This document shows positions 4,166-51,545 of a stretch of 64,000 bases of DNA, piece after piece. Both the position numbers and the translations under genes were made by a program. Positions within the stretch are counted from its first letter, which is position 1. Every line of letters starts with the position of its first letter. Where the stretch lies: assembly GCA_003021085.1 (NCBI GenBank), contig PXRE01000005.1, positions 3,433 through 67,432 on the forward strand. Reading direction: 5' to 3'. The notes beneath the pieces are model-generated. The model saw only the letters and a program-made list of their open reading frames with translations, was not told the DNA's origin and ran no database searches. This DNA is from Halobacteriales archaeon QS_1_68_20. Lineage in GTDB: Archaea; Halobacteriota; Halobacteria; Halobacteriales; PXRE01.

Positions 4166-4960
4166 ATGCAGGACAGTGACGTGGCCGTCTCGCTGACGGA
4201 CGTGCGGAAGACCTACCAGCTCGGCGAGCCGGTCCACGCGCTGGACGGCGTGAGCCTGGAGATTCCCCGGGGGAGCTACACCGCCGTCATGGGACCGAGC
4301 GGCTCCGGCAAGAGCACGCTGTTGAACCTCGTCGGGTGCCTGGACACCCCGACCGAGGGGACGGTGACCGTCGACGGCCGGGAGACCAGCGACCTCCGGG
4401 AGACGGAACTGGCCCGCATCCGCGGCGAGGAGGTCGGGTTCGTCTTCCAGACGTTCAACCTGATGCCGCGGCTGACGGCCCGCGAGAACGTCGCCCTCCC
4501 GCTGGTGTTCCAGGACGTGAGCAAGGACGAGCGCCACGAGCGCGCCGAGGCGATGCTGGAGCGGGTGGGACTGGGCGACCGCGTCGACCACCGGCCGAAC
4601 GAACTGTCCGGCGGCCAGCGCCAGCGCGTCGCCGTCGCGCGGGCGCTGATCGCCGACCCCGCGATCTTGCTGGCCGACGAACCGACTGGCAACCTCGACA
4701 CTGACACGGGCGCGAAGATCATGGCGCTGTTCGAGGAACTGTACGACGAAGGCAACACCATCCTCATGGTCACCCACGAGCGCCACGTCGCGGAACACGC
4801 CGAGCGCATCGTCCACCTGCTGGACGGCGAAGTCGAGGCGGTGGAGGAACTGTCCGGTGCCGGCCGGCCGACGGGCGCTGAAGTCGGTGACGGGAGCGGT
4901 GCTGGTGGTCCCGGCGACGACGGCCGCGGTGACGCCGAGGAGGGAGGTGAGCGGGCGTGA
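4166..4960 (+). CDS. ABC transporter ATP-binding protein (MacB/LolD-like)
   Basis: Walker [10 protein letters not shown], signature LSGGQRQR, Walker B LLADEPT. Confidence 0.9.
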
Positions 4961-6204
4961 AACTCGGCGCCGCGTTCGGGATGGCCTGGCGGGCGATCAA
5001 GGGCCACAAACTCCGGTCGACGCTGACCACGCTGGGCATCGTCATCGGCATCGCGGCGGTCATCACGTTCGTCACCCTGGGCGCGAGTCTGTCGGCGGCC
5101 ATCGTCGGCGACGTCGGCGCGGGCGAGGCCCAGACGATGAACGTGTGGGCCGGCCCCGAGGACACACAGGGTGGCGGCGGCCCCGGCTTCGGCGCGCAGC
5201 CGGTGTTCACCGAGCACGACCTCGACCGACTGCGGAACGTCGAGGGCGTCGAGTCGGTGATCCCCTACGGCCAGGTCGCCACGACCGCCGTCGGCCACGA
5301 CGGCGACCGCGTCGCCACCAGCGGCGTCGTCGCCACGACGCCCGCCTACTTCGACGACGCCGAGTTCCGCGAGGGCGGCTCCTTCGAGCCGGGAACCCGT
5401 CAGGTCGTGCTCAACCCGGCGGCCGCCGAGCAGTTCGAGCAGAACGCCACCGTCGGGAGCACGGTCACCATCACCCTTGCGAACGGGTCGACCGTCGACG
5501 CGGAGGTGGCCGGCGTCCTCGACAGTTCCGAGGGTCAGTCCGCCTTCGAGGGCTTCGGCGGGTCCCCGCGGATCTACGTCTCCACGGACCCGTTCTACTC
5601 GACCCAGGTCGAGAGTCCCTCCCAGAGTGAAACCCAGCGGGTGTACTCGCTGTTGCTCGTGCGGGCCAGCGACCCCGAGACGGTCGAGGCGACCCAGGAC
5701 CGCGTCCGGGGGTACCTCGAAGACGAATCCGACGCCGCGGACCTGGCGCCCGAGGACTACCAGTTCGAGGTCCAGACCAGCGAGGAGTTGCTGGAGCAGT
5801 TGCAGGACGTCCTCGACCGGTTGACCGCGTTCGTCACCGGCATCGCGGTGCTGTCGCTGATCGTCGGCGCCATCGGCATCGCCAACATCATGCTGGTCTC
5901 CGTGACCGAGCGGACCCGCGAGATCGGGATCATGAAGGCCGTCGGCGCGAAGAAACGCGACGTCCTCACGCTGTTCCTCGTGGAGGCGAGCGTCATCGGC
6001 ATCATCGGCGCCGTCATCGGGACGTTGCTGGGAATCGTCGGCGGGTGGGCGGTCACCACCCTGCTGGACTTCCCGCTGACGTTCCCCGTCGAGTGGTTCC
6101 CCATCGCCGTCGTGGTCGGCGTCGCCGTGGGCGTGCTCTCGGGACTCTACCCCGCCTGGAGCGGTGCCCGGACCGACCCCATCGAGGCGCTGCGGTACGA
6201 GTGA
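4957..6204 (+). CDS. ABC transporter permease, FtsX/MacB-type
   Basis: 415 aa. N-terminal TM, large periplasmic-type domain, C-terminal FtsX-like 3-TM bundle. 4-nt overlap with the ATPase gene. Confidence 0.85.
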
Positions 6205-6311
6205 TCGGGACGAGTGGCATCGTCGAACAAGGCGTTTCGGTGACTGTGGACGCATCGGCCGCTCAGCTTCTCGTACGTCCGCCGGGCCTGGCCTGGTCGG
6301 CCTACCCACGT

Positions 6312-6623
6312 GGCGCGCGCTGGTGAGCGTGCCGAGCACTGCGAGGCCGCGAACCAGAGCCGCGCGAGGTCCCCGCGAGCGTGCGAGCGGGGGCTCGTCA
6401 GAGCTCGCTCTGACGGTGGACGAGTAACGCAGTCGGCTGGGGAGGGTGTGGCCATCCCTAGGTCAAGTGGTCGCTAGTGTTCACGGTTCGAACGGGCAAC
6501 GCAAGCGGCATGCAAACCTAGGGATGTCCACGCCCTCCCCAACCGATTGCGGTGCTCGGGGCGCTCACGTCCGTTCGCGCCACCTGCGCTCCTCATCCCC
6601 CTCCCGCGTAGCTCGCGCGCGCC
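6312..6623. repeat. GC-rich MITE-like intergenic repeat, family A full copy, with GGCGCGCGC/GCGCGCGCC termini and an internal long palindrome
   Basis: Left part ggcgcgcgctggtgagcgtgccgagcactgcgaggccgcgaacc matches 14197..14228. The core ggctggggagggtgtggccatccctagg ... cctagggatgtccacgccctccccaacc is an inverted repeat. The core is also found at 14255.. and 57206... Confidence 0.7.
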
Positions 6624-6713
6624 AGGGAGCCAGATTCGGACTGCGAAAAACTCGTGTGTCGTTGACGGTGAGCGACCGGCGTTTCCTTAAGTAGTTTCGA
6701 GAACTAATAAGGG

Positions 6714-7148
6714 TCAGTCGTCTACGTCCTCGACGGGTTCCAGCCGCCTGCCGACACTCAGCAGTCGCCAGACCGCCGCCGCGAGCACCGCCCCGGTGGC
6801 GTTGGCGGTCGCGTCGACGAGGTCGAACGACCGGAAGGGGAGGCCGTACTGGACGGACTCCACGACCAGGCCGAACCCGACGGCGGCGCCCACCGCGATT
6901 ACGAGTCGCGTCCGCGAGCGTGCTGGGACGGCGTACGCGACGGTGACCGCCAGGCCGCCGTAGGCGACTGCGTGGACCCACTTGTCCATCCCGACGAGGC
7001 CCAGTGGACCGAGGACGGCGGCCGCTTCCGGGGGCCGCGTGACCGACACCGCGAAGATGGCGGCGGCGACGGCCACTGCGGCCGCCGCGCGGACGGGCCA
7101 GGGGAGCAGGGGAACGCGCACGACTCCGCGAACGCGGTCGACCGTCAA
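6714..7148 (-). CDS. VanZ family membrane protein
   Basis: 4 TM segments; motifs DKWVHAVAYGG and DLVDATANATG. Confidence 0.6.
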   Translation of the reverse strand: MTVDRVRGVVRVPLLPWPVRAAAAVAVAAAIFAVSVTRPPEAAAVLGPLGLVGMDKWVHAVAYGGLAVTVAYAVPARSRTRLVIAVGAAVGFGLVVESVQYGLPFRSFDLVDATANATGAVLAAAVWRLLSVGRRLEPVEDVDD

Positions 7149-7223
7149 AAGGGAGGTGGATCGTCAGGAGAAAGCGACGGAGGAAACGAGAAGCCGCCCA
7201 CAGAGGGGAGCGGACGTGACCGC

Positions 7224-7973
7224 CTAGTCGTCGTCCGAGGCGGCGTCGAAGGGGTCACGGGAGAACGCCTGGCCGAGGCCGGACTGTTCGAGCATGAACC
7301 CCTCCGACACCCGGCCGGCACCCGGCGCGAGCACGCGCTCGCCGTCCTCGTCGGACCCCGCGTCGGCCCCAGCGAGTTCCTCGGCACGGTCCAGCGCGGC
7401 GTCGACCACCTCGTCGTCGGGGACGACCGCGGCGAGCAGCCCCCAGTCGGCCATCTCCTCGGCGTCGTACTTCTCGCCGGTGAACATCATCTCGTAGGCG
7501 CGTCCCCGGCCGACGATGGCGGGGAGCCGCTGGGTCGCCCCGGCGCCGGGGATGAGGCCGTGAGTGATCTCCGGCAGGCCGTACTCGCTGGACTCGCCGC
7601 CGATGCGGACGTCGGCGGTCAGCGCCAGTTCGAGGCCGCCGCCGAGCGCGAGGCCGTCGACCGCAGCCATGACCGGCGCCGACAGCGACTCGATGGCGTC
7701 CATGACTTCCTGGGCCTGGCGGGCGACGGACTCGCCGGCGGTCTGGTCGTCCCGCCGGGCGATGGGCGCCCGCGTGTCCATCCCGATGGAGAACGAGCGG
7801 CTCCCGGCACCCGCCAGGACGACCGCGTCGGGGTCCTCGGCGGCCAGGCGGTCGGTCGCGGCCTGCAGGTCCTCGATCATCTGCTCGTTGATTGCGTTGA
7901 GCCGCGACCGCCGCTCTAGCCGCAGGCGGTAGACGTCGTTTCTGGGTTCGGACAGCGAGAGCGTCTCGAACAT
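7224..7973 (-). CDS. enoyl-CoA hydratase/isomerase (crotonase) family protein
   Basis: ATG at 7973 (MFETLSL...) inside track ORF 7224..8432. Motifs AAVDGLALGGGLELAL and LPEITHGLIPGAGATQRL (catalytic Glu retained). Confidence 0.85.
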   Translation of the reverse strand: MFETLSLSEPRNDVYRLRLERRSRLNAINEQMIEDLQAATDRLAAEDPDAVVLAGAGSRSFSIGMDTRAPIARRDDQTAGESVARQAQEVMDAIESLSAPVMAAVDGLALGGGLELALTADVRIGGESSEYGLPEITHGLIPGAGATQRLPAIVGRGRAYEMMFTGEKYDAEEMADWGLLAAVVPDDEVVDAALDRAEELAGADAGSDEDGERVLAPGAGRVSEGFMLEQSGLGQAFSRDPFDAASDDD

Positions 7974-7975
7974 GG

Positions 7976-8773
7976 TCAGGTGCGGTCGTCGACGCAGGCG
8001 GCCAGTGACCGGCCGGACCCGGCGCCGAGGTCGACGTCCGGGTCCGACACCGACGTCGCGGCGCGGACGGCGTGTTTCATGTGCTCGAAGGCGTCGGTCG
8101 GCCGCCCGGCGAACTCCGTCGCCAGCGCCAGCGCCCGGTCGAGGACGGCGTCGTCGTCGACGACGTAGTTCAGCAGTCCCCAGTCGGCCATCGTCTCGGC
8201 GTCGAAGGTCCGGTCGGAGTGGACGAACTCGCGGGTTCGGTCGCGGCCGACCGTTGCGACGAGCCGTTTCGTCACGCCGGTCGCCCGGAGACGCCGCGGC
8301 GGGACTCCGCCACAGCAGTACTCGCTGGACGCGCCGCCGATCCGGAGGTCGGTGCACAGCGCCAGCGCCATGCCGTAGCCCCGGACGTTGCCGCGGGGCG
8401 CGCCGATGACCGGCACGCCCAGGGTCGCGCACGCGTCACAGGTCGCCTGCAGTTCCTGCTCGGCGCCGTACCCGTCGTCGTCGCCGTCCGCGTCGTCCTC
8501 GGTGATCGCGAACGCTTCCGGTTCGCCGGTGACGACGATGGCGTTCGGCTCCACCTCGCTGGTCGCCCGGCAGGCCCGCCGGAGTTCCGACCGGAACTCC
8601 CAGTCGTACGTGCCCGCCGCGAGTTCGGTGACGGCGACGCCCTCGTCGGTCACGTCGACCGACACGCGCCGGCCGTCGTACACCGACGACCCGTCCGCGA
8701 ATGCCTGCCGTTCGATCTGTCGTTTGGAATCCGGTTCTCCCTCGTCCGTGGTTGGCTCCCGTCGATAGCTCAT
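7976..8773 (-). CDS. crotonase-fold protein, divergent paralog of 7224..7973 (catalytic Glu region not conserved)
   Basis: ATG at 8773 overlaps the fabG-like stop (ATGA). It aligns by eye to the downstream paralog (IGGASSEYCCGGVPPRRLRATGVTKRL vs IGGESSEYGLPEITHGLIPGAGATQRL). Confidence 0.65.
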   Translation of the reverse strand: MSYRREPTTDEGEPDSKRQIERQAFADGSSVYDGRRVSVDVTDEGVAVTELAAGTYDWEFRSELRRACRATSEVEPNAIVVTGEPEAFAITEDDADGDDDGYGAEQELQATCDACATLGVPVIGAPRGNVRGYGMALALCTDLRIGGASSEYCCGGVPPRRLRATGVTKRLVATVGRDRTREFVHSDRTFDAETMADWGLLNYVVDDDAVLDRALALATEFAGRPTDAFEHMKHAVRAATSVSDPDVDLGAGSGRSLAACVDDRT

Positions 8774-9531
8774 GCTAGCTGACCACCGTCGATCCTGAAC
8801 ACCTCTCCGTTGACGTACGATGCGCGCTCCGACGCGAGGAAGACGACGCACTCCGCGACTTCCTCGGGGTCGGCTTCCCGGCCCTGGGGAATCGACCCCT
8901 GGGACGCCTCGTCGAACCCGCCCTCCTGCAGGTCCTCGTAGGTCGCCGTCTGCACCAGCCCGGGTGCGACGGCGTTGATGCGGACGTCCCGGCCACCGAG
9001 TTCTCGGGCGGTCGAGCGTGTGAATCCTTCGATCCCGGCTTTGCTCGCTGCGTAGGCAGTCTGCCCCGGCCAGCTACTGCTTCCCGCGATGCTACTGATG
9101 TTGACGACGCTGCCTGCCTCGCCGCGTAGCATCGACCGGACGGCCCGCCGGGTGCAGTTGAACGTGCCGGTCAGGTTCGTCTCGATGGTCCTGGTCCACT
9201 CTTCGGGGTCCATCCGGACCACCAGTCCCATCGACATGACGCCGGCGTTGTTGACCAGCACCGTCACCTGGCCGTGGTCGTCCTCCACGGCGTCGAACGC
9301 CTCGTCGACGGCGCCGTAGTCCCTGACGTCGACCTGCCGGGTCGACACCTCGCCGGGGGCATCCGCGAACGCCGTCTCGGTCTCGGCCGCGGCCTCCTCG
9401 TTGCTGTAGTAACAGGCCACGACGGTCGCGCCGCGGGCCGCGAACGCCTCCGTGATCGCTCGGCCGATGCCGCGGGTGCCGCCCGTGACCAGGACCACCT
9501 CGTCGGCCATCCGGTCGGGCGCGTCAGTCAT
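8770..9531 (-). CDS. fabG: 3-oxoacyl-[ACP] reductase-like SDR
   Basis: TGGTRGIG, NNAG, YAASKAG motifs; 8-nt overlap with the fabD-like gene. Confidence 0.8.
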   Translation of the reverse strand: MTDAPDRMADEVVLVTGGTRGIGRAITEAFAARGATVVACYYSNEEAAAETETAFADAPGEVSTRQVDVRDYGAVDEAFDAVEDDHGQVTVLVNNAGVMSMGLVVRMDPEEWTRTIETNLTGTFNCTRRAVRSMLRGEAGSVVNISSIAGSSSWPGQTAYAASKAGIEGFTRSTARELGGRDVRINAVAPGLVQTATYEDLQEGGFDEASQGSIPQGREADPEEVAECVVFLASERASYVNGEVFRIDGGQLA

Positions 9532-10441
9532 CGCCGAACCCCGCCTCGGCGTCAGCCGGCGTCTCGATGGCGACCGCCTCCAGGTCCGAGTCGATCCTGG
9601 AGACGAGGTCGGCCAGCACGCCCGCAGGCGGCATCTCGACGACGCGTTCGACGCCCATCTCCCCGAGTCGCTCGACGGCCGCGACCCACTGGATCGGCGA
9701 GACGAGTTGCTCTGGCAGGTCCCGCTGGGGCACCTCGGCGCGCTCGTACGGTTCCGCGCGGGTGTCCGAGACCACCGGCACCGAGGGATCCGAGAACTCG
9801 AACCGCTCGACGATGTCCGCCAGCCGGTCGGCCGCCGGTTCCATGACCGGCGAGTGCGAGGCCGTCGCCACGTCGAGTTCGCTCAGGACGACCCGGCCGC
9901 CCGCCTCCTCGATCCGGTCGCAGACGGCGTCGACGGCGTCCTCGCGGCCGCTGACCAGCGTCTGCCGCGGGCCGTTGTACGCGCCCACGCTGACGCCGTC
10001 GACCTCGCTCGCCGCGTCCTCGACCGTCTCGGGATCCGCCAGCGACACCGCGACCATCTTCCCGGGCCCTGCAGTCTCCTCGGCGTCGGCCATGGCCTGG
10101 CCTCGCTCGGCGGCGAACTGTGCCGCGTCCGGGCGCGAGAGCACGTCGGCGACGCCCATGGCGGTGATCTGTCCGAGGCTGTGGCCGGTCACGACGTCCG
10201 GCGTGGCGCCGTACCGCTTCTGGACGGCGTCGGTCGCCACGATGCCTGTCGTCAGCACCGCCTGGAGCATGTTCGGCACCTCCAGCAACGTGTCCGTGTC
10301 GGCGTCGAGCAACAGCGACTCCAGGTCGTCGTCCTCGAAGCGGTCCAGGGCCGCCTCGACCTCCGGCCAGGCGTCGAGGAACGGCGCGAGCATTCCCGGT
10401 TGCTGGGTGCCGCCGCCCGGATAGACGAACGCCGTCTTCAC
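9524..10441 (-). CDS. fabD: malonyl-CoA:ACP transacylase-like acyltransferase
   Basis: GHSLGQITA nucleophile elbow, GPRQTLVSG, ASHSPVMEPA; 305 aa. Confidence 0.8.
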   Translation of the reverse strand: MKTAFVYPGGGTQQPGMLAPFLDAWPEVEAALDRFEDDDLESLLLDADTDTLLEVPNMLQAVLTTGIVATDAVQKRYGATPDVVTGHSLGQITAMGVADVLSRPDAAQFAAERGQAMADAEETAGPGKMVAVSLADPETVEDAASEVDGVSVGAYNGPRQTLVSGREDAVDAVCDRIEEAGGRVVLSELDVATASHSPVMEPAADRLADIVERFEFSDPSVPVVSDTRAEPYERAEVPQRDLPEQLVSPIQWVAAVERLGEMGVERVVEMPPAGVLADLVSRIDSDLEAVAIETPADAEAGFGDD

Positions 10442-10986
10442 GCCCGCTCACCTCCGTCGACCGCGACGACCTGCGCGACGGCGACGTCGGCCTCGCCGTC
10501 GTGGCTCAGGCTGACGTCCAGTTCCGGGACCGTCCCGCCGAACGACTCGGCCAGCGCCTCGCGCGCTGTCGCCCCGAGGTCGAAGCGGGGCCGGGGGTCG
10601 CCCCGGGCGACCTCGATGCTGGCGAACGGCACGGCGTCGTCGGTCGACAGCAGTTTGTAGAACGCCTCCTTCGCGGCCCACCGCGCGGCGTAGTGCTGGG
10701 CGGGGTCGCGGGTGCCCTCGCAGTAGGCACGCTCTGCCTCGGTGAACGCCCGCTCCTTGATCCCGGCGGCGACCGACTCGTCGAACCCCCGGAACGTGGC
10801 GACCGACTGCACGTCGACGCCGGTCCTGACCCGGGGGTCGGCGTCCCCGCCGACGTCCCTGGCGATTCGCTCGCGGACCCCGGCGGTCCGCTCGCGGTCG
10901 TCCGGCCGGTAGGCGTGCCCGTCGCCGGTTCGGCGGGCACCCTGGCTCCGCGCTGACTGACCGTCCTCGATTGGCTCCGACACCAT
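10438..10986 (-). CDS. acpS: 4'-phosphopantetheinyl transferase (AcpS-type holo-ACP synthase) with an N-terminal extension of about 60 aa
   Basis: GVDVQSV, FTEAERAYC, ARWAAKEAFYKLL, VSLSHDGEADVAVAQVV match the AcpS pattern. 4-nt overlap with the fabD-like gene. Confidence 0.7.
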   Translation of the reverse strand: MVSEPIEDGQSARSQGARRTGDGHAYRPDDRERTAGVRERIARDVGGDADPRVRTGVDVQSVATFRGFDESVAAGIKERAFTEAERAYCEGTRDPAQHYAARWAAKEAFYKLLSTDDAVPFASIEVARGDPRPRFDLGATAREALAESFGGTVPELDVSLSHDGEADVAVAQVVAVDGGERA

Positions 10987-10992
10987 GGTTCG

Positions 10993-12210
10993 TTACGTCG
11001 ACTCGAAGACGAGCGCCCCGTTGGTCCCGCCGAAACCGAAGGAGTTGCTCAGCGCGACGTCGACGTCGGCGTCGCGGGCTTCGGTCACGACCGGCACCGG
11101 GCAGTCGTCGTCCCTGTTCTCGCAGTTCTTCGTCGGGGGCATGACCCCCTCGTCGACGGCGTTGACGGTGAACGCCGCCTCGATGGCCCCGCTGGCTCCG
11201 TACGGGTGGCCGACGAGTGACTTCGTGCTGGTCACCGGCGGGCAGTCGTCGAACACCGCGTTCAGCCCCGTCGACTCGTGGACGTCGCCCGTCGGCGTCC
11301 CGGTCGCGTGGGCGTTCACGTGGTCCACGTCGGCGGGGTCGACGTCCGCGTCCGCCAGCGCGGCCTCGACCGCCTTCCGCATCCCGGCGGCGTCGTCCGG
11401 GGGCTTCGTCGGGTGGGAGGCGTCGGCGCTCAGGCCGGCCCCGCCCAGCGTCGCCAGGGGGGTCGCGCCTCGTTGCTCGGCGTGCTCGCGGGATTCGAGC
11501 ACGAGGACCGCCGCGCCCTCGCCGACGACCGTGCCGTCGCGGTCCTCGTCGAAGGGCCGGCAGGCCGCCTCGGGCTCGTCGTCGCGGGTGCTCAGCCCCC
11601 GCAGTGCGCCGAAGGTGCCGAGGATGGTCGGCGTGAACGTCTCGGCACCGCCTGCCAGCATGACGTCGGCCCGTCCCGTCCTGATGTCGCTGGCGGCGTC
11701 GCTGATGGCGTGCGCGCCGGCCGCACAGGCCGTCGTCGGCGTGCGGTTCGGCCCGTGGGCGTCGAACTCGATGCTGACGTGGCCTGCCGCCAGGTTCGGC
11801 AGGTACCGGATGATCGCGCGGGGGGAGACGCGGTCACCGGCGGCGACCTGCTCGGCGTACTCCTCGAACTCCAGGGCGCCACCCATCGCCGTCCCGATGC
11901 TGGTGCCGACCGTGGTCGACCCGCGGTCGTCGCCGGACCGGTCGAGGTCGGCGTCCGTCAGCGCCTCCTCGGCCGCGCGGACGGCGAACTGCGTGAACCG
12001 ACCCATCCGGCGGGAGTCGGCCAGCTCCCACTCGTCGGGGTCGGCGTCCACCTCGAACGCGACGTTCGGGATCTTGGGGTACTCCGAAGCGTCGAAGAGA
12101 GTAATCGGTCCGGCGCCGCTGTCGCCACGTTTCACCGCCGACCAGGTCTCGTCGAAGTCCTCGCCGGCCGCGGTGACGGCTCCCAGGCCCGTGACTACGA
12201 CGTCGGTCAT
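10993..12210 (-). CDS. fabF: beta-ketoacyl-[ACP] synthase II-like (Cys-His-His elongating KS)
   Basis: TTACAAG (active Cys), HATGTPTGD, KSLVGHPYGASG, NSFGFGGTNGALVF. Confidence 0.9.
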   Translation of the reverse strand: MTDVVVTGLGAVTAAGEDFDETWSAVKRGDSGAGPITLFDASEYPKIPNVAFEVDADPDEWELADSRRMGRFTQFAVRAAEEALTDADLDRSGDDRGSTTVGTSIGTAMGGALEFEEYAEQVAAGDRVSPRAIIRYLPNLAAGHVSIEFDAHGPNRTPTTACAAGAHAISDAASDIRTGRADVMLAGGAETFTPTILGTFGALRGLSTRDDEPEAACRPFDEDRDGTVVGEGAAVLVLESREHAEQRGATPLATLGGAGLSADASHPTKPPDDAAGMRKAVEAALADADVDPADVDHVNAHATGTPTGDVHESTGLNAVFDDCPPVTSTKSLVGHPYGASGAIEAAFTVNAVDEGVMPPTKNCENRDDDCPVPVVTEARDADVDVALSNSFGFGGTNGALVFEST

Positions 12211-12455
12211 GCCCGCAGCTTCTGCTGGACGAGCTCCTTGAGATCCCCGACCGTCTCGAGTTCTTCCAGTTTCTCGTCGGGAATGGAGATGTCGTGCTCC
12301 ATCTCGATGATCTCGACCACCTCGATCACCGCGATGGAGTCAAGATCCAGGCCCTCGGATCCGAGCGGCGTGTCGTCCTCGTACTCGCCTGCCTCGATCC
12401 CGGTCGCCGTGGCGATGACCTCTTCCACGGACGTGTCAGCCTCCGTTTGTGACAT
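12207..12455 (-). CDS. acyl carrier protein
   Basis: Contains LDLDSIAVIEVV (the DSx phosphopantetheine-attachment motif); acidic, about 82 aa from the ATG at 12455 (track ORF extends to 12479). 4-nt overlap with the KS gene. Confidence 0.8.
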   Translation of the reverse strand: MSQTEADTSVEEVIATATGIEAGEYEDDTPLGSEGLDLDSIAVIEVVEIIEMEHDISIPDEKLEELETVGDLKELVQQKLRA

Positions 12456-12785
12456 GGCTAACAGGAGGGGACTCTCCATTGCTACTTAATATTTGCGTCT
12501 AACGCCCGGTGAACACAATTAGGTCGTGGAAAACGAACGTTCTTAGTTCCTAGATTTTAAGCAACGGTTCCGGTTATATACGTTCGATTACCTAACGGTA
12601 ACCACCCCCGACGGACCCCCGGCCGAGGACGACGGTCACCCGCCGGCCCCGGTCGTCGGACGAAACGGCGGGACGGCGACGGGAAATCATGCTGATCTAC
12701 CTGCTCGGGCGCCCGGACCGTCGAGGTGACCACCGACTGCCGGTACGCCGAGCTGTGCGCTCTCGCCGGCGAATATTCTAGATGA

Positions 12786-13175
12786 TTAGTGCTCAACGAA
12801 CTCGATCAGGATGCCGCCCGTCGAGCGTGGGTGGAGGAAGGCGACGTCGTGGCCCCAGGCGCCCGGGCGGGGTTCCTCGTCCACCAGGCGGACGCCCGCC
12901 TCGCGCGCGGTGTCCAGGGCCGCCTCGATGTCGTCGGTCTCCAGCGCGAGGTGGTGGATGCCGGGGCCGTTCCGTTCGAGGTACCGCGGGATGGATCCGC
13001 CGGCGTCCTCGGTCGGTTCCAGCAGTTCGAAGTAGCCGTTGCCGAACTCGAGGAAGGTGATTCGCAGGTCGTCGAACACTTCCTCGTGGGCGACCGGGGC
13101 GTCGAACAGGTCGCTGTAGCGGTCGGCGAGTTCCGCGGCGTCGTCGGTGGCGATTCCAGCGTGATCGAAGCGCAT
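12786..13175 (-). CDS. methylmalonyl-CoA epimerase / VOC (glyoxalase) family protein
   Basis: 129 aa: MRFDHAGIATDD...GIHHLALETDDIEAAL...HPRSTGGILIEFVE. Confidence 0.8.
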   Translation of the reverse strand: MRFDHAGIATDDAAELADRYSDLFDAPVAHEEVFDDLRITFLEFGNGYFELLEPTEDAGGSIPRYLERNGPGIHHLALETDDIEAALDTAREAGVRLVDEEPRPGAWGHDVAFLHPRSTGGILIEFVEH

Positions 13176-13336
13176 ACCAACCCGTACGTTCGCTCACAAG
13201 AAAAACGTTGGAGGCTCGACGGGACGACCGAATTTTCCCCGGCGACAACGTTTTTGTACTGATAGGTCGGTGCAGAAAACGTGGCAGTTACGCGCGACCG
13301 AACGGAGGTCGCCGCTGGACGACGGTGAGCAACACG

Positions 13337-14113
13337 ATGTACGACTTCGAGGGCGAGACGGTGCTGGTCACGGGCGGAACGAGAGGTATCGGCAAGGAGG
13401 CCGGTCGCCTGTTCCTCGAACACGGCGCGACGGTCGTCCTGAACTACCACGACGACGACGAGGCCGCCGAGCAGGCCCGTTCGGACCTGTCCTCGACCGG
13501 TCCCGGCGAGGTTCACCTCGGCAAGTTCGATGTCGCCGACGAGGTGGCCGTCGACGAGGCCGTGGAAGCCATCTGGGAGGAGTACGGCCCTATCCGGCAT
13601 CTCGTGAACAACGCGGGCGTGCTGGCCAACGTCGGCCCCCTCGTGGGCATGGAAAGGGACGACTGGGACAGCGTCGTCGACGTGAACCTCGGCGGCGCGT
13701 TCAACGTCGTCCGCGCCGTCGGCAAGCGGATGGTGCTGGCGGGCATCGACGGGAGCATCGTCAACGTCTCCAGCATCACCGCCAGGCGCGGATTCCCCGG
13801 CGAGATCCACTACGGTGCCAGCAAGGGCGGCCTGGTTTCGATGACCCGCGCGCTCGCCCGCGAACTCGGTCGCCGGAACATCCGCGTCAACGTCGTCCTC
13901 CCCGGGTACACGAAGACGTCGATGGCCGACACCGGCCACTTCCCCGGGGCGGACTTCGAGGACTTCCGCGAGAAGGAACTCTCCCGGGTTCCCCTGGAGC
14001 GGCGGATGGCCGACCCCGAAGAGGTGGCGGAGGTCATCGTCTTCGTCGCCAGCGACCGCGCGAGCTACATGACCGGGTCCGAGATCCGGGTCGACGGCGG
14101 ACGACTCGCTTGA
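13337..14113 (+). CDS. SDR family oxidoreductase (FabG-like)
   Basis: ATG at 13337 (MYDFEGETVLVTGGTRGIG); NNAG, YGASKGG motifs. Confidence 0.85.
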   Translation: MYDFEGETVLVTGGTRGIGKEAGRLFLEHGATVVLNYHDDDEAAEQARSDLSSTGPGEVHLGKFDVADEVAVDEAVEAIWEEYGPIRHLVNNAGVLANVGPLVGMERDDWDSVVDVNLGGAFNVVRAVGKRMVLAGIDGSIVNVSSITARRGFPGEIHYGASKGGLVSMTRALARELGRRNIRVNVVLPGYTKTSMADTGHFPGADFEDFREKELSRVPLERRMADPEEVAEVIVFVASDRASYMTGSEIRVDGGRLA

Positions 14114-14151
14114 TCGGTCGTGGGTCGAGTAGCAGATTGACCTGGGCTCCC

Positions 14152-14361
14152 GGCGCGCGCGAGCAACGTGCGCGAGGGACGAGTTGAGCGTCCGGGTGCG
14201 CGTGCCGAGCACCGCGAGGCCGCGAACCCCGGCCGAACGAGGAGGCTGGGGAGGGTGTGGCCATCCCCAACCGATTGCGCTCCTCACTTCGTTCCGGTGC
14301 TCATCCCTCGCGCAGTGTTTGTTCGCGGTCGCCGAGGGCGACACGCTCACCAGCGCGCGCC
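14152..14361. repeat. GC-rich MITE-like intergenic repeat, family A, internally collapsed copy
   Basis: Same termini (ggcgcgcgc ... gcgcgcgcc) as 6312..6623. Shares gtgccgagcaccgcgaggccgcgaacc and ggctggggagggtgtggccatcc-ccaaccgattgcg. The two halves are mutually inverted. Confidence 0.7.
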
Positions 14362-14458
14362 GGGGCGGTTGGACGTGCTGGCCGTATCACTGGCCGGTAT
14401 CCGGACCTGGCACGTTCACGTCCCGTAGCGATTTGGTCGCGGCGTGCGATGAGTAGGT

Positions 14459-15190
14459 ATGCCACGGACAGCGGTGATCGCCGGGGTCGGCCCCGGCCTG
14501 GGCGAGTCGATAGCGCGCAAGTTCGCGGACGAGGGGTGCTCGGTCGGCCTGTTCGCGCGCTCGGAAGACTACCTCGACGAACTCGCCGCGGACCTGCCGG
14601 GCGAGGCCCTGGCGGTTCCGACCGACCTCACCGACCCCGACGCGATCAGGGCGGGGTTCGACGCGGTGCGCGAGGATCTCGGCCCCGTGGACGTGCTGGT
14701 CAACCACGCCAGCGCAGGGTCCTGGAAGGGCCTGCTGGACGCCAGCGTCGAGGAGTTCGAGCGCGCGTTCCACGTCAACGGCCGGGGCGCGTTCGTCTGC
14801 TCGCAGGAAGCCGTCTCCGACATGCTCGGCCAGGAGGGACGCGGGGCAGAAGCCGACCAGGACGACGAAGCCGGCGGGACGATTATCTTCACTGGCGCGA
14901 CGTCGGCGGTCCGCGGGCGGGAAGGCGCTATCGGCTTCTCCGCCGCCAAGTTCGCCGCCCGGGGGATGGCCGAGTCCATGGCCCGGGAGTTCGGCCCCGA
15001 GGGCGTCCACGTCGCCCACGTCGTCGTCGACGGCCAGATCCGCACGCCGCAGGCCCGCGAGTCCGACCGCCCCGCACACGAGTTCTTCGACCCCGACGAG
15101 ATCGCGGAGACCTACTGGCACCTCGTGGAACAGGACCGCTCGGCGTGGACGCTGGAACTGGACCTCCGGCCCCACGTCGAGGAGTTCTGA
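14459..15190 (+). CDS. SDR family oxidoreductase
   Basis: AGVGPGLGESIA glycine-rich loop, FSAAKFAARG (YxxxK-like region); 243 aa. Confidence 0.75.
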   Translation: MPRTAVIAGVGPGLGESIARKFADEGCSVGLFARSEDYLDELAADLPGEALAVPTDLTDPDAIRAGFDAVREDLGPVDVLVNHASAGSWKGLLDASVEEFERAFHVNGRGAFVCSQEAVSDMLGQEGRGAEADQDDEAGGTIIFTGATSAVRGREGAIGFSAAKFAARGMAESMAREFGPEGVHVAHVVVDGQIRTPQARESDRPAHEFFDPDEIAETYWHLVEQDRSAWTLELDLRPHVEEF

Positions 15191-15299
15191 GCGGCCGGAC
15201 CCCCGGTACCATCGCCCGACGGCGGCCGGTCACCCCAGGGTTTTAAAAAGGCAGGCGGACAGACAGTTAACGAGTACGGCTGGTCGGTGGAGTAATACG

Positions 15300-16328
15300 A
15301 TGTCTGGATACGATTCCTCATCCGCGGACGGGGGACGGACGGCCGAGGAGGCGTTCCTCTTGATCGCGCCGGTCCCGTCGCTGATGCTGTACGAGGACGG
15401 GCGGGTCAGCGCCTGGAACGAGGCCGCCGAGGACCTGTTCGGCTGGAGCGAACCGGAAGTGCTCGGGCGCATTCCGCCGTTCGTGCAGGCGTCCGAGCGC
15501 GGGCGCTGGCGCGAGCACATGGAGCGCGCCCTGGACGGCGAGCGCGTCCAGGGCGCGGAGTTCTCCCTGCGGACCATCCGGGGCGGCAAGATCCGGGCGA
15601 CTGTCTCGATGGCCGCCTTCTCGGGCGACGTTGGATCGGTGCTGGTGGTCATCCAGGACCGGACGCGGCTGGTCGAACTGACCCACGAGGTCCGGCTGTT
15701 CAACCGCGTCCTGCGGCACAACCTCCGCAACGACCTCAACCTCGTCACCGGCTACGCCGAGATGCTGGCGGGGGAACTGGACGACGACCGCCTGCGCTCG
15801 ATGGCCATCGAGATCAGGGAGAACGCCGACGAGGTGCTGGCCATCGGCGACACCGCCCGCGAACTGGACGCCGTCGTCGGCGGCATCCAGGACCTCAAGG
15901 TCGTCCAGCTAGACGAGATCGTCCGGACGCTGGTGGCTGACTACCGGTCCGTGGCGACCGTCGACTGTGATCTGTCGCCGGTGCGCGCCCGGGCCATCCC
16001 GGGCGTGGACATGGCCATCGACCACCTGCTGGAGAACGCCCTCCAGCACAACGACGCCGACGACCCCCACGTCGAGGTCACCGTCCGGACGACCGTCGAG
16101 GACGACGAGCGCTGGGCGGAGGTGGTCGTCGCGGACAACGGCCCCGGCATCCCCGAGGCCGAACGCGAGGTGCTGACCGAGGGCGCGGAGACGGCCCTCC
16201 ACCACGGGAGCGGCCTCGGCCTGTGGCTGGTGTATTGGATCGTCCAGAAGACGAACGGCGAACTGGCGTACGAACCGAACGACCCAAAGGGGAGCGTCGT
16301 CACGCTCCGACTGCTCGCGGACCGATGA
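15300..16328 (+). CDS. PAS domain sensor histidine kinase
   Basis: N-terminal PAS-like region, H-box VLRHNLRNDLN, HATPase_c motifs ENALQHN, DNGPGIP, GSGLGLWLV. Confidence 0.85.
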   Translation: MSGYDSSSADGGRTAEEAFLLIAPVPSLMLYEDGRVSAWNEAAEDLFGWSEPEVLGRIPPFVQASERGRWREHMERALDGERVQGAEFSLRTIRGGKIRATVSMAAFSGDVGSVLVVIQDRTRLVELTHEVRLFNRVLRHNLRNDLNLVTGYAEMLAGELDDDRLRSMAIEIRENADEVLAIGDTARELDAVVGGIQDLKVVQLDEIVRTLVADYRSVATVDCDLSPVRARAIPGVDMAIDHLLENALQHNDADDPHVEVTVRTTVEDDERWAEVVVADNGPGIPEAEREVLTEGAETALHHGSGLGLWLVYWIVQKTNGELAYEPNDPKGSVVTLRLLADR

Positions 16329-45045: not shown

Positions 45046-46086
45046 TCACACGTACACGCCAGCGTACGCCCCCATGAGCGCCAGGAGGTAGACCGCGTTG
45101 ACGATGTCGATCCGGTACAGCGTCGAGACGGTGCTCGTGTCGAAGACGTACAGGACGCCCGACGCGACGATGCCGAGCACGAGGAACCCGGCCAGCGCCA
45201 GCGGGTCCGCAACGCCGAGCAGCACCCCGCCGGCCACGTACGACACCGGGAAGCTCACCATGAGGTACTTGGTCGCGCGCTCGCGGCCCACCTTGACGAC
45301 GAAGTTCTCGACGCCGGACTTGGCGTCGTGTTCGGCGTCCTTGAGGTCCTTGTAGGACATGTTCAGCGCCATGAACAGGAACACGACGGCGGCGAGCCGC
45401 GTCGACTCCGTGGTCGGGGCATCGACGACCGCCGCGCTCCCCAGCAGCACGCCCGCGACGCCCATCAGGCCCGCGGAGACCATGCTGGTGACCACGCCTC
45501 CTTTGAGCCTGATCGGCGGAACCGAGTAGAGGACGTTGATGACGATCATCCAGATGGCACCGGCGACGGCGTACAGGTTGATGGCTGCCGCGAACCCGCC
45601 CCCGGCGATCCAGAGGACGACCGCGGCCACGAACGCCTCCCGGTCGGTCAGCTCGCCCTGGGCGGTCGCCCGGTGGGGGCTGGCGTGTTCGTCGGTCTCC
45701 CTGTCGAAGACGTCGTTCATGAACCACGAACCACACCACGTCAGCGCCAGCGCCCCGGCACCGGCCACGATGGTCGTCGCCGACGGGACCGCGTTCCCGG
45801 TCCCAACCATCTCGAAGACGATGCTGACCGCGAACAGCGCCCAGAATGCGATCACTGCCGACATCATCTTGGCCGTGCGCCTGCCGAGGAGCTTCGCCTT
45901 CCGGGGCTGGGTCACCGCGTACGCTGCGTAGGAGACGCCCAGCACTCCGGTGATCGCACCTACGAGAACCGTCGACGAGATCGGAACGACCGCACTCACG
46001 GCCGGGACACCTCCCACGGCTGATCGACGAGCGCGTCCGAGTCCTCCGGTACCTTCGACATGTCTCCCGATAGCAGCCCTTTCCAT
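45046..46086 (-). CDS. UbiA family membrane prenyltransferase
   Basis: First Asp-rich motif NDVFDRETDEH followed by HRATAQGELT; second motif YKDLKDAEHDAKSG; 8-9 TM helices. Confidence 0.85.
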   Translation of the reverse strand: MERAAIGRHVEGTGGLGRARRSAVGGVPAVSAVVPISSTVLVGAITGVLGVSYAAYAVTQPRKAKLLGRRTAKMMSAVIAFWALFAVSIVFEMVGTGNAVPSATTIVAGAGALALTWCGSWFMNDVFDRETDEHASPHRATAQGELTDREAFVAAVVLWIAGGGFAAAINLYAVAGAIWMIVINVLYSVPPIRLKGGVVTSMVSAGLMGVAGVLLGSAAVVDAPTTESTRLAAVVFLFMALNMSYKDLKDAEHDAKSGVENFVVKVGRERATKYLMVSFPVSYVAGGVLLGVADPLALAGFLVLGIVASGVLYVFDTSTVSTLYRIDIVNAVYLLALMGAYAGVYV

Positions 46087-51300: not shown

Positions 51301-51545
51301 CGATGAGCTAACCAATCTTCCGTGATTTATTAAAACCTTCGACATTTATACGGGCCTCCGCTGAAAAACCCTTCCCCGCGGCCGAGGCGGGGCCTGGGCC
51401 CGCGCTCGTGGTGTCAGAACCGGGATCCCCGGTTCCGTCAGACGGCGTTCTGGCCGTTGTATCCACGACGAACTGCGTTTATTGTACTATCTATTTATTA
51501 GATTAGTAAGGCTTATTGACTTCTGATCGACAACTAGTGAGGGAA

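What the first reader, a model, noticed from the sequence alone, without database searches (positions are those of the whole stretch)
7224..12455. Compact bacterial-type ACP-dependent condensing module (ACP, KAS II, AcpS, FabD, FabG, two crotonases) in an archaeon, lacking FabZ/FabI/FabH
Seven minus-strand genes are almost all joined by 4-8 nt overlaps. They are: an ACP with the DSI phosphopantetheine site; a Cys-His-His ketosynthase; an AcpS-type phosphopantetheinyl transferase; a GHSLG acyltransferase; an SDR ketoreductase; and two crotonase-fold proteins. Comparative genomics of archaeal fatty-acid metabolism holds that ACP and its activating enzyme are absent from most archaea, and that the rare cases are horizontal acquisitions. 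There is no hot-dog dehydratase, enoyl reductase or FabH. The product is therefore unlikely to be a normal saturated fatty acid. A short 3-hydroxy or enoyl acyl chain, a polyene, or a small type II PKS-like product is more consistent, with a crotonase acting as dehydratase. A methylmalonyl-CoA epimerase and two further SDR genes flank the cluster. The whole block 6.7-14.1 kb is bracketed by family A repeats (6312..6623 and 14152..14361).
Basis: partly seen in the sequence, partly recalled or inferred. Interest (0 to 1): 0.8.

Follow-up and report, generated by a model that had tools for sequence, protein, structure and literature searches.

The report
Haloarchaeal ACP-dependent mini fatty-acid synthase operon
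A salt-loving archaeon carries a complete, intact operon for building acyl chains on an acyl carrier protein, machinery that archaea are generally said to lack, here joined to an unusual pair of crotonase enzymes; the operon is real and its product is unknown.

Summary
Window 7224-12455 (minus strand) holds seven tightly packed genes: ACP, a FabF-type ketosynthase (Cys-His-His), AcpS, a FabD-like acyltransferase, a FabG-like ketoreductase and two crotonases. All catalytic residues are intact and all proteins are strongly acidic. The contig is archaeal (Orc1/Cdc6, NurA; Halobacteriales MAG QS_1_68_20).

It is not a one-off. ACP-KS-AcpS-AT-KR is a conserved five-gene core in a monophyletic halophile KS clade (81 sequence clusters, NJ bootstrap 100/100). 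That clade spans Haloarcula, Natrinema, Natronorubrum, Natronobiforma, Haloferax and others, partly on plasmids.

12 of 16 related loci add a quinone-oxidoreductase-type MDR, a putative enoyl reductase. None lies in this 64-kb window. The crotonase pair marks the window's subclade. ECHb always keeps both catalytic Glu. ECHa always lacks them, is extremely rare, and is fused to ECHb in three of five family representatives.

Relatives sit beside LanM/precursor peptides, GNATs, MMPL/ABC/MFS exporters or R2lox. This points to a specialised lipid or lipopeptide rather than bulk membrane lipid.

Best reading: a long-resident, mosaic, ACP-dependent FAS-like module. The product is unknown. I found no publication on this operon.

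The parts
12207..12455 (-). Acyl carrier protein, 82 aa from the ATG at 12455 (the ORF can extend to 12479). The phosphopantetheine-attachment Ser lies in LDLDSIAV.
   Evidence: Pfam PP-binding 5.2e-10. Best NCBIfam ACP models reach 9e-12 but fall below their cutoffs. The Ser is invariant in 7 orthologues and the 8-aa N-terminal extension is not conserved. pI 4.05.
10993..12210 (-). FabF-type beta-ketoacyl-ACP synthase, 405 aa, with a Cys-His-His triad, the Lys and the gatekeeper Phe.
   Evidence: NF005589 421 bits against cutoff 387; TIGR03150 431 against 494. Best PDB match is T. thermophilus FabF 1j3n, 6.5e-94. Similarity ranks FabF, then mitochondrial KAS, then KasA, then PKS II KS. Motifs TACAAG, NAHATGTP, STKSLVGH and FGFGG align to the FabF active site.
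10438..10986 (-). AcpS-type 4'-phosphopantetheinyl transferase, 182 aa including an N-terminal extension of about 50 aa.
   Evidence: Pfam ACPS 2.6e-13; TIGR00556 51.1 against 45.35. D58, E107, K111 and H162 are invariant in 7 orthologues.
9524..10441 (-). FabD-like acyl-CoA:ACP transacylase, 305 aa, GHSLG. The specificity motif is TASHS rather than the xAFHS of the main clade.
   Evidence: Pfam Acyl_transf_1 2.4e-36. TIGR00128 175 against 261, below the equivalog cutoff. Best PDB matches are FabD proteins. Motif comparison across 11 orthologues is.
8770..9531 (-). FabG-like 3-oxoacyl-ACP reductase, 253 aa, a classical SDR with Ser and YxxxK.
   Evidence: NF009466 251.5 against 222; TIGR01830 261.7 against 297.75. 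Pfam adh_short_C2 7.6e-67 and KR 4.8e-20.
7976..8773 (-). ECHa: a divergent crotonase-fold protein, 265 aa, lacking both catalytic Glu (GYGMALAL; EYCCGG). It is the non-hydratase partner of ECHb.
   Evidence: Pfam ECH_1 1.2e-18. Both Glu are absent in all 8 family members. Only 6 close homologues turned up among 5.8e9 proteins. Only 8 representatives reach E<=1e-30 among 1.84e9, and 5 of them are true ECHa, of which 3 are fused to ECHb. NCBI names it 'hypothetical protein'.
7224..7973 (-). ECHb: a crotonase, 249 aa, with both catalytic Glu (GGGLELAL; LPEITHG). It is the candidate 3-hydroxyacyl-thioester dehydratase.
   Evidence: Pfam ECH_1 1.6e-45. Best PDB match is 5zai, 3-hydroxypropionyl-CoA dehydratase, 1.6e-37. 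Both Glu are invariant in 6 orthologues, including L010 and L091. There are 8 close family members, then identity drops to <=44%.
12456..12600 (-). AT-rich upstream region with TATA-like elements, the putative operon promoter.
   Evidence: Read directly from the sequence: TATATAA, TTAAAAT and AATATTAAG, the last about 30-40 nt upstream of the ATG at 12455. This is inference only.
12786..13175 (-). Methylmalonyl-CoA epimerase, possibly functionally linked to the operon.
   Evidence: TIGR03081 141 against 115. An orthologue lies next to the module in L088 (91% identity) and in the distant L090 (65%).
6714..7148 (-). VanZ-like membrane protein 75 nt downstream on the same strand. Its association with the operon is uncertain.
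   Evidence: Pfam VanZ 8.7e-08. Conserved only in the close relative L088.
13340..14113 (+). Divergently oriented FabG-like SDR (YxxxK). It is a flank and was not shown to belong to the system.
   Evidence: adh_short_C2 3.3e-63. Present next to MCE only in L088.
6290..6633 (.). Left copy of a dispersed, hairpin-forming intergenic repeat.
   Evidence: The 6415-6565 segment folds at -49.9 kcal/mol, z = -8.15.
14142..14383 (.). Right copy of the same repeat family. A third copy lies at 57055-57260.

Best explanation
This is a self-contained, ACP-dependent, type-II-FAS-like acyl-chain-building operon that has lived in haloarchaea for a long time. The proposed steps are below, each marked as shown or inferred.

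1. AcpS converts apo-ACP to holo-ACP. This is inferred from conserved catalytic residues.
2. The FabD-like AT loads a malonyl-type extender from CoA onto ACP. This is inferred, and the extender identity is uncertain in this subclade.
3. The single FabF-type KS both primes and elongates, giving 3-oxoacyl-ACP. Priming would be by decarboxylating the loaded extender, as the lone mitochondrial KAS does, or by taking an acyl-CoA. The fold and active site are shown; the priming route is inferred.
4. The FabG-like KR gives 3-hydroxyacyl-ACP.
5. ECHb, which keeps both catalytic Glu, dehydrates it. ECHb works in a physical complex with the Glu-less ECHa. ECHa could be a scaffold or ACP-docking subunit, an isomerase or a decarboxylase. 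Coupling is supported by gene fusion in relatives; the activity is inferred.

The bacterial-type loading and condensing half has thus been combined with non-FabZ, non-FabI processing enzymes: a crotonase here, and an MDR reductase in most relatives. No reductase lies in this window. In this organism the chain is therefore either reduced by an enzyme encoded elsewhere or stays hydroxy/enoyl.

The product is most likely a specialised, probably exported, acyl compound or an acyl donor for lipidation. It is unlikely to be bulk membrane lipid.
For: - Domain and active-site evidence exists for all seven proteins.
- The genes are packed like an operon and the proteins have pI 4.0-4.8.
- The contig is archaeal and the KS is 100% identical to that of Halobacteriales archaeon QS_1_68_20.
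- The 5-gene core is conserved in 16 further loci from at least 8 named haloarchaea and several metagenomes.
- The halophile KS clade is monophyletic with NJ bootstrap 100/100. The window's 14-tip subclade also gets 100/100.
- The nearest bacterial AcpS relatives are not in similar operons.
- An MDR (PIG3/QOR-type, also matching PKS/FAS ER domains) lies next to the core in 12 of 16 loci.
- ECHa and ECHb are fused in L090, read through in L007, and fused in representatives P0253-P0255.
- A crotonase acting on 3-hydroxyacyl-ACP has a precedent in RpfF (PMC5011732).
- Relatives' neighbourhoods point to a specialised product. LanM with Cys-rich peptides, LLM and ABC occur in L002 and L090. Eis-like GNAT occurs in L001, L002 and L091. 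MMPL occurs in L090 and L095. R2lox-MDR occurs in 5 loci. Some copies are on plasmids.
- GNATs are known to transfer fatty acyl or ACP-bound chains to LanM-type RiPPs (PMC8784127).
Against: - There is no biochemical evidence at all.
- The ACP and AT score below NCBIfam equivalog cutoffs.
- No thioesterase, acyltransferase or other release enzyme is in the window cluster.
- No enoyl reductase lies within 64 kb.
- FabG-type KRs normally give (3R)-hydroxyacyl, whereas canonical Glu-Glu crotonases act on (3S). ECHb is more similar to ordinary CoA hydratases than to RpfF, FabM or PKS ECH1.
- No RiPP or GNAT genes are adjacent in this window, so the lipidation idea is borrowed from relatives.
- ECHb could act on CoA esters and not on ACP esters.
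Confidence: 0.6

Rival explanations
1. It is a complete saturated fatty-acid synthase of the mitochondrial type: one FabF-like KS, MCAT, an SDR KR and an MDR enoyl reductase. In this genome the reductase would be encoded outside the window. It would make octanoyl-ACP for LipB/LipA lipoylation, or palmitate for protein acylation.
For: An MDR lies next to the core in 12 of 16 relatives, and next to a crotonase pair in L007. The KS is close to mitochondrial KAS structures. Archaea encode LipB/LipA or LipM/LipA despite lacking ACP, an unexplained puzzle (PMC10332631). H. volcanii makes C16:0 by an unknown route (bioRxiv 10.1101/2024.07.05.601840).
Against: The module is patchy among Halobacteria. 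It is sometimes plasmid-borne, duplicated in one strain and split by an IS element in another. This is atypical for a housekeeping cofactor pathway. No MDR or hot-dog dehydratase was seen in the window. No lipoylation genes lie nearby in any locus.
Confidence: 0.2
2. The window's subclade builds methyl-branched chains. The adjacent methylmalonyl-CoA epimerase supplies (2S)-methylmalonyl-CoA, and the AT has switched its extender specificity. ECHa could then be a methylmalonyl-thioester decarboxylase that makes the propionyl starter.
For: MCE is adjacent in the window, in L088 and in the distant L090, which are all the two-crotonase loci whose flanks are visible. ATs of this subclade carry TASHS, AAHS or GAHS in place of the main clade's xAFHS. 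They have also lost the TQP motif. In PKS ATs, HAFH marks malonyl and YASH marks methylmalonyl specificity (from memory of the PKS literature). ECHa keeps oxyanion-hole-like motifs but has no Glu, as crotonase-fold decarboxylases do (knowledge of MMCD, ECH2 and CarB).
Against: Bacterial FabD itself has VPSH and is malonyl-specific, so Ser at this position is not diagnostic. The active-site motif is GHSLG, not GHSQG. ECHa shows no specific similarity to MMCD or ECH2 structures. MCE adjacency amounts to only two independent events, and MCE may simply be the housekeeping gene.
Confidence: 0.2
3. It is a signal or short-acid synthase. ECHb acts like the DSF synthase RpfF, dehydrating 3-hydroxyacyl-ACP and then hydrolysing the thioester. 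This would release a cis-2-enoic or 3-hydroxy acid as a diffusible molecule.
For: No other release enzyme is encoded. ECHb keeps the Glu pair that RpfF uses. RpfF acts on FabG-derived 3-hydroxyacyl-ACP (PMC5011732). No reductase lies in the window.
Against: RpfF-type structures are not among the 60 best PDB matches of ECHb. Without a reductase, elongation beyond C4 would give polyenes and not DSF-like chains. No sensor of the RpfC/RpfR type was identified. The role of ECHa remains unexplained.
Confidence: 0.1
4. It is a polyketide beta-branching (HMG-CoA-synthase cassette) remnant or a type II PKS. The two crotonases would be ECH1/ECH2, and the KS would be a decarboxylase or KS-alpha.
For: An adjacent crotonase pair together with ACP, KS and AT resembles pksF-I/curC-F cassettes. 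Both ECHs weakly hit NF005496.
Against: No HMG-CoA synthase is present in any of the annotated loci and none was seen in the others. The KS keeps its active-site Cys, whereas cassette KS proteins carry Ser. There is no chain-length factor. The KS is closest to FabF, not to PKS KS. ECHa and ECHb are not close to solved ECH1/ECH2 structures.
Confidence: 0.03
5. It is a bacterial contaminant in the MAG, or a decaying, non-functional acquisition.
For: The source is a metagenome-assembled genome. The system is bacterial in type.
Against: The genes lie on one 67.6-kb contig together with Orc1/Cdc6 and NurA. GC content matches the surrounding sequence. All proteins have pI 4.0-4.8. All catalytic residues are intact. 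The same operon occurs in complete genomes of cultured haloarchaea.
Confidence: 0.02

Closest known systems
Bacterial type II fatty acid synthase (AcpP, AcpS, FabD, FabF, FabG, FabZ, FabI, FabH)
   Same: It has discrete ACP, AcpS, FabD-like AT, FabF-type KS with Cys-His-His, and FabG-like KR. The KS aligns end to end with solved FabF structures.
   Different: It has no FabH, no hot-dog FabZ/FabA and no SDR/flavin enoyl reductase. It has a crotonase pair instead, and relatives have an MDR. The host is an archaeon. The operon order ACP-KS-AcpS-AT-KR was not seen at the closest bacterial AcpS loci sampled.
Mitochondrial FAS II (ACP, PPTase, MCAT, OXSM/CEM1, KR, HTD2, MECR/Etr1)
   Same: A single FabF-like KS does priming and elongation with no FabH. 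Relatives use an MDR-family enoyl reductase. It is a minimal self-contained set inside a host whose main lipids are made otherwise.
   Different: The dehydratase is a crotonase and not a hot-dog HTD2. The MDR is absent from this window. The relatives' MDR is closest to the QOR/PIG3/2-haloacrylate reductase type. No link to lipoylation genes was seen.
DSF synthase RpfF / Bcam0581 and FabM: crotonase-fold enzymes that act on acyl-ACP
   Same: A Glu-Glu crotonase is encoded with an ACP-dependent pathway, so a crotonase working on FAS intermediates has a precedent (PMC5011732).
   Different: ECHb is not specifically similar to these enzymes. ECHb is also paired or fused with a Glu-less partner, ECHa, which those systems do not have.
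Mycobacterial EchA6: a non-catalytic crotonase that feeds acyl-CoA to FAS II
   Same: ECHa, like EchA6, is a crotonase lacking the catalytic acids. EchA6 structures are among its PDB matches.
   Different: The similarity is generic to the fold. A shuttle function for ECHa is speculation. The description of EchA6's role comes from memory, not from a paper read here.
PK/FA-RiPP hybrid lipopeptide clusters (lipolanthines, goadvionins, selidamides)
   Same: In relatives L002 and L090 the module sits with LanM, Cys-rich precursor peptides, GNATs and exporters. GNATs are known to attach fatty acyl or ACP-bound chains to such peptides (PMC8784127).
   Different: No RiPP genes or GNAT lie next to the window's cluster. 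No archaeal lipidated lanthipeptide is described in the two archaeal lanthipeptide papers checked.

Membership tests
Bacterial type II FAS | Small ACP with a conserved Ser for phosphopantetheine | tested here: met
   PP-binding 5e-10. The Ser is invariant in 7 orthologues. Scores fall below the NCBIfam ACP equivalog cutoffs.
Bacterial type II FAS | AcpS-type PPTase | tested here: met
   Pfam ACPS 2.6e-13; TIGR00556 above its cutoff. The Asp, Glu, Lys and His residues are conserved.
Bacterial type II FAS | Malonyl-CoA:ACP transacylase (FabD) | tested here: inconclusive
   The fold, GHSLG, and the Gln, Arg and His are present, and the best PDB matches are FabD. However, TIGR00128 scores 175 against a cutoff of 261, and the specificity motifs differ from the main clade.
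Bacterial type II FAS | Elongating KS (FabF/FabB) with Cys-His-His | tested here: met
   NF005589 421 against 387.
Bacterial type II FAS | Initiating KS III (FabH) | tested here: not met
   None in the cluster or in the scanned window ORFs. None in the related loci.
Bacterial type II FAS | 3-oxoacyl-ACP reductase FabG | tested here: met
   NF009466 251.5 against 222.
Bacterial type II FAS | Hot-dog dehydratase FabZ/FabA | tested here: not met
   No hot-dog domain in the cluster, in the scanned window ORFs, or in small unassigned ORFs of related loci.
Bacterial type II FAS | Enoyl-ACP reductase FabI/K/L/V | tested here: not met
   None found. The flanking SDRs have YxxxK or FxxxK, not the FabI-type Yx6K (read directly).
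Mitochondrial-type FAS II | MDR-family enoyl thioester reductase | tested here: not met
   tblastn with the relatives' MDR finds nothing in the 64-kb window. The MDR is present in 12 of 16 related loci. The rest of this genome could not be searched.
Type II polyketide synthase | KS-alpha/KS-beta (chain-length factor) heterodimer | tested here: not met
   There is only one KS gene. It is closer to FabF than to actinorhodin KS.
HMG-CoA-synthase beta-branching cassette | HMGS plus a Cys-to-Ser decarboxylating KS plus an ECH1/ECH2 pair | tested here: not met
   No HMGS in any locus, and the KS keeps its Cys. A crotonase pair is present but is not specifically similar to ECH1/ECH2 structures.
RpfF-type DSF synthase | A crotonase with two catalytic Glu that dehydrates 3-hydroxyacyl-ACP and hydrolyses the thioester | tested here: inconclusive
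   The Glu pair is invariant in ECHb. There is no specific sequence affinity. Activity cannot be tested with these tools.
PK/FA-RiPP hybrid lipopeptide cluster | Precursor peptide, RiPP maturase and acyltransferase co-located with the acyl-chain genes | tested here: not met
   Absent around the window cluster. Present in relatives L002, L090 and L091.

The most novel reading that the evidence does not exclude
Haloarchaea have domesticated a bacterial ACP/KS/AT/KR loading-and-condensing unit and completed it with non-canonical processing enzymes. These are a heteromeric or fused Glu-less/Glu-Glu crotonase pair as the dehydratase and an MDR as the enoyl reductase. The result would be a previously undescribed mosaic ACP-dependent fatty-acid or polyketide synthase. 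Its chains would be used for specialised archaeal products: lipidated lanthipeptides in some lineages, R2lox-modified lipids in others, and possibly methyl-branched or unsaturated acids in this one.
Probability: 0.3. Interest if true: 0.8.

Novelty: new variant of a known kind. Interest (0 to 1): 0.6.

Why it matters
Textbook and recent primary literature state that archaea lack ACP and ACP synthase and make any fatty acids by ACP-independent routes. Here, a coherent, conserved, clearly functional-looking ACP-dependent operon family is spread through several haloarchaeal genera, including cultured strains with complete genomes.

This gives a directly testable case of ACP-based acyl chemistry in archaea. 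It offers a possible source for unexplained fatty acyl groups in haloarchaea. Its relatives provide a candidate route to archaeal lipopeptides and a genomic clue to the unknown substrate of R2lox proteins.

The Glu-less/Glu-Glu crotonase pair, often fused and extremely rare in sequence space, may be a new solution for the dehydration step of a type II synthase.

Tried and rejected
- **Genome-collection scan with the AcpS alignment.** Only 5 new haloarchaeal loci came out, so the number of Halobacteria species carrying the operon could not be counted.
- **Metagenome scan with the ECHa alignment.** The single usable pattern was too generic. It returned 3 distant crotonases and nothing useful.
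- **AlphaFold2 model of ECHa from a 6-row alignment.** Mean pLDDT was 46.5, too poor for a fold search, which was therefore not run.
- **Dibrova et al. 2014** could not be read. **Lombard et al. 2012 (MBE)** is not held. Which archaea those authors listed as ACP carriers is therefore unknown to me.
- **Search for a hidden hot-dog dehydratase** among small unassigned ORFs of related loci: none found.
- **Rfam scan of the region**: only one sub-threshold chance match.
- **Plasmid collection**: only the Haloarcula sp. JP-L23 535-kb replicon.
- **Rejected readings:** type II PKS (no CLF), HMGS cassette (no HMGS, KS keeps its Cys), contamination (archaeal markers on the contig, acidic proteome), and a mobile island bounded by the repeats (third copy elsewhere, no mobility genes, no tRNA).

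Full report
**What is there**

The window is high-GC (about 69%) and comes from a haloarchaeon. The KS protein is 100% identical to a protein of 'Halobacteriales archaeon QS_1_68_20', on a 67.6-kb contig. The window also encodes Orc1/Cdc6 and NurA.

- ACP, 12207-12455
- KS, 10993-12210
- AcpS, 10438-10986
- AT, 9524-10441
- KR, 8770-9531
- ECHa, 7976-8773
- ECHb, 7224-7973

The gene junctions are -4, +6, -4, -8, -4 and +2 nt. An AT-rich stretch with TATA-like elements precedes the ACP gene. A VanZ-like membrane protein follows after 75 nt. All seven proteins have pI 4.0-4.8, which is the signature of a salt-in proteome.

**Gene-by-gene check**

- **ACP.** PP-binding 5e-10. The Ser of D-S-I is invariant in seven orthologues. 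Scores are below NCBIfam ACP cutoffs, so this is a divergent ACP.
- **KS.** It passes the FabF subfamily model (421 against 387). It aligns end to end with solved FabF structures (best 1j3n, 6.5e-94). Similarity ranks FabF, then mitochondrial KAS, then KasA, then PKS II KS. The active-site Cys, both His, the Lys and the FGFGG Phe are in place.
- **AcpS.** It passes TIGR00556 and keeps the Asp, Glu, Lys and His residues.
- **AT.** It is FabD-like (best PDB matches are FabD proteins) and has GHSLG, Gln, Arg and His. It scores below the FabD equivalog cutoff.
- **KR.** It passes the FabG subfamily model.
- **ECHb.** It is an ordinary-looking crotonase with both catalytic Glu. Its best PDB match is 3-hydroxypropionyl-CoA dehydratase 5zai.
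- **ECHa.** It is a divergent crotonase in which both Glu are replaced.

No FabH, hot-dog dehydratase or FabI/K/L/V was found in the cluster. None was found among 46 other window ORFs/start variants scanned.

**It belongs to a family**

The top 80 KS homologues (49-78% identity) plus one more are all strongly acidic and Lys-poor. Every one that carries a name is from Halobacteria. Below about 49% identity the hits become ordinary bacterial FabF proteins from diverse phyla.

In an NJ tree the 81 halophile sequences form one clade. A 70-taxon bootstrap gives 100/100 for that clade and 100/100 for the 14-tip subclade containing the window.

I inspected sixteen further loci:
- Haloarcula sp. JP-L23, on both the chromosome and a 535-kb replicon
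- Natronobiforma cellulositropha
- Natrialbaceae archaeon A-gly3
- Natrinema sp. HArc-T2
- Natronorubrum bangense
- Haloferax sp. S1W plasmid pHFX2
- Halomontanus rarus plasmid
- several MAGs and metagenome contigs

Wherever the contig allows, they all carry the same five-gene core, ACP-KS-AcpS-AT-KR. The closest bacterial AcpS relatives (Gaiellales/Thermoleophilia and others) are not embedded in such an operon.

Taken together, this points to one old acquisition followed by spread within Halobacteria. Acidic proteins and host-like GC content fit that picture. It does not look like a recent transfer.

**What travels with the core**

1. **MDR.** A roughly 320-aa MDR protein lies next to the core in 12 of 16 loci. 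It is of the PIG3/quinone-oxidoreductase type. It also matches the ER domains of CurF/CurK/JamJ, mammalian FAS and mycocerosic acid synthase. It is the obvious candidate enoyl reductase. tblastn finds none in the 64-kb window.
2. **R2lox.** In five loci an R2-like ligand-binding oxidase sits directly upstream of the MDR.
3. **Lanthipeptide genes.** In L002 (Natronobiforma) and the distant L090, the module lies beside a LanM lanthipeptide synthetase and 37-41-aa Cys/Ser-rich peptides. A luciferase-like monooxygenase and an ABC transporter are also there.
4. **Other accessory genes.** Eis-like GNATs occur in L001, L002 and L091. MMPL exporters occur in L090 and L095. A radical-SAM enzyme with a small peptide and an MFS transporter occurs in L091.
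5. **Crotonases.** An ECHb-type enzyme follows the KR in seven loci. The ECHa+ECHb pair is confined to the window's subclade: the window, L088, L089, L007 and L090.

**The crotonase pair**

ECHb keeps GGGxE and PE in all six orthologues aligned. ECHa lacks both Glu in all eight members aligned.

ECHa is very rare. The word-indexed search of 5.8e9 proteins found only six close homologues. An exhaustive HMMER scan of 1.84e9 representatives found eight at E<=1e-30. Five of these are true ECHa. Three of those five are single polypeptides of 494-546 aa, with a Glu-less N-terminal half and a Glu-Glu C-terminal half. L090 is such a fusion, and the L007 reading frame runs through both halves.

This Rosetta-stone pattern is good evidence that ECHa and ECHb act as one unit. 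ECHa shows no specific affinity to solved decarboxylase-type crotonases (MMCD, ECH2), to RpfF or to FabM. EchA6, CarB and many hydratases all appear at similar, generic scores.

**Mechanism**

The following steps are supported by sequence features:
- phosphopantetheinylation by AcpS
- loading by AT
- decarboxylative Claisen condensation by a FabF-type KS
- ketoreduction by KR

The following steps are inferred:
- self-priming of the lone KS, as in mitochondria
- dehydration by ECHb in complex with ECHa
- enoyl reduction by an MDR, where one is present

Four caveats apply. FabG-type reductases give (3R)-alcohols, while canonical crotonases handle (3S). RpfF shows that a Glu-Glu crotonase can act on FabG-derived 3-hydroxyacyl-ACP (PMC5011732), but ECHb is not RpfF-like in sequence. 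No release enzyme is encoded in the window cluster. The window has no reductase, so I cannot tell whether this organism makes saturated, enoyl or hydroxy chains.

**A lead on the extender unit**

A methylmalonyl-CoA epimerase lies next to the module in the window and L088 (TIGR03081 above its cutoff for the window copy). One also lies next to it in the distant L090.

The ATs of this subclade carry TASHS, AAHS or GAHS and lack the TQP motif. The main clade has xAFHS and TQP. In modular PKS ATs, HAFH marks malonyl and YASH marks methylmalonyl specificity (from memory of the PKS literature). This is suggestive of methylmalonyl use. It is not diagnostic, because FabD itself has VPSH.

**The repeats**

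The two flanking elements are real and share exact 24-nt and near-exact 27-nt cores, against 0 expected. The left one contains a long hairpin (z = -8.15). A third copy lies at 57055-57260.

Short matches occur at the syntenic intergenic positions of the relative L088. No tRNA, integrase or transposase is nearby. GC content is not deviant. I read these as a dispersed intergenic repeat family, not as the ends of a mobile element.

**Literature**

Reviews state that only a few unrelated archaea have ACP, AcpS and MCAT, by HGT (PMC3533463). [quoted passage not shown]

The same preprint found C16:0 in H. volcanii, but found no homologues of the Sulfolobus ACP-independent pathway in Halobacteriales. 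PMC10332631 notes the unexplained presence of LipB/LipA or LipM/LipA in archaea that lack ACP.

Searches for this operon, for archaeal KS gene clusters and for lipidated archaeal lanthipeptides found nothing. NCBI annotates ECHa and ECHb as hypothetical proteins.

**Verdict**

The object is a member of an uncharacterised haloarchaeal family of ACP-dependent FAS-like operons. The window carries a rare sub-variant with a coupled crotonase pair and no nearby reductase. I rate it as a new variant of a known kind, with interest 0.6.

Noticed in passing
window 48582-50687 (-) and 51516-53576 (+); also 45046-46086 (-): Two genes of about 700 aa encode squalene-hopene-cyclase-like proteins (SQHop_cyclase_C 1e-50 and 1e-54, plus the N domain). 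A UbiA prenyltransferase lies nearby. Class II terpene cyclases are unusual in Archaea.
   Followed up: no
L004 7195-8058, L005 7654-8514, L009 about 6505-7395, L011 about 6500-7300, L096 7880-8728: An R2-like ligand-binding oxidase sits immediately upstream of MDR-ACP-KS-AcpS-AT-KR in five haloarchaeal loci (NCBIfam NF006200 1e-37, below its cutoff; PDB 4hr0/3ee4 family). From memory, R2lox proteins co-purify with fatty acids and have no known physiological substrate. This linkage may be a clue to that substrate.
   Followed up: partly
L002 1-9556 (Natronobiforma cellulositropha) and L090 1-9502: The FAS-like module lies beside a LanM lanthipeptide synthetase, 37-41-aa precursor-like peptides ending in motifs such as DSCWSSSCN or SCDACSCT, a luciferase-like monooxygenase, GNATs and an ABC transporter. 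This is a candidate archaeal lipidated-lanthipeptide cluster. The two archaeal lanthipeptide papers checked do not mention it.
   Followed up: partly
window 6290-6633, 14142-14383, 57055-57260: These are three copies of a structured intergenic repeat. The left copy forms a hairpin of about 140 nt (z = -8.15). There was no Rfam match in the one region scanned (5800-15300). Short matches lie at syntenic positions in the relative L088.
   Followed up: partly
alignment A5 (AT orthologues), window 9524-10441: The AT specificity-region motif splits by clade. The main clade has xAFHS plus TQP. The crotonase/MCE subclade has TASHS, AAHS or GAHS, with M[LH][QR] in place of TQP. This may reflect a change of extender unit.
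   Followed up: partly
L004 11660-19937 (Natrialbaceae archaeon A-gly3): The operon is split here. ACP-KS-AcpS is separated from AT-KR by about 8 kb. The intervening stretch includes an IS605 OrfB/TnpB-type gene, a primase-like gene and a transporter.
   Followed up: no
window 14459-15190 (+): The second flanking SDR has FSAAK where classical SDRs have the catalytic YxxxK. The catalytic Tyr is therefore replaced by Phe (read; Pfam).
   Followed up: no
window 4166-6204 (+): A MacB-type ABC exporter (ABC_tran, then MacB_PCD plus FtsX) lies about 0.5 kb beyond the VanZ-like gene, on the opposite strand. Whether it exports the cluster's product is unknown.
   Followed up: no
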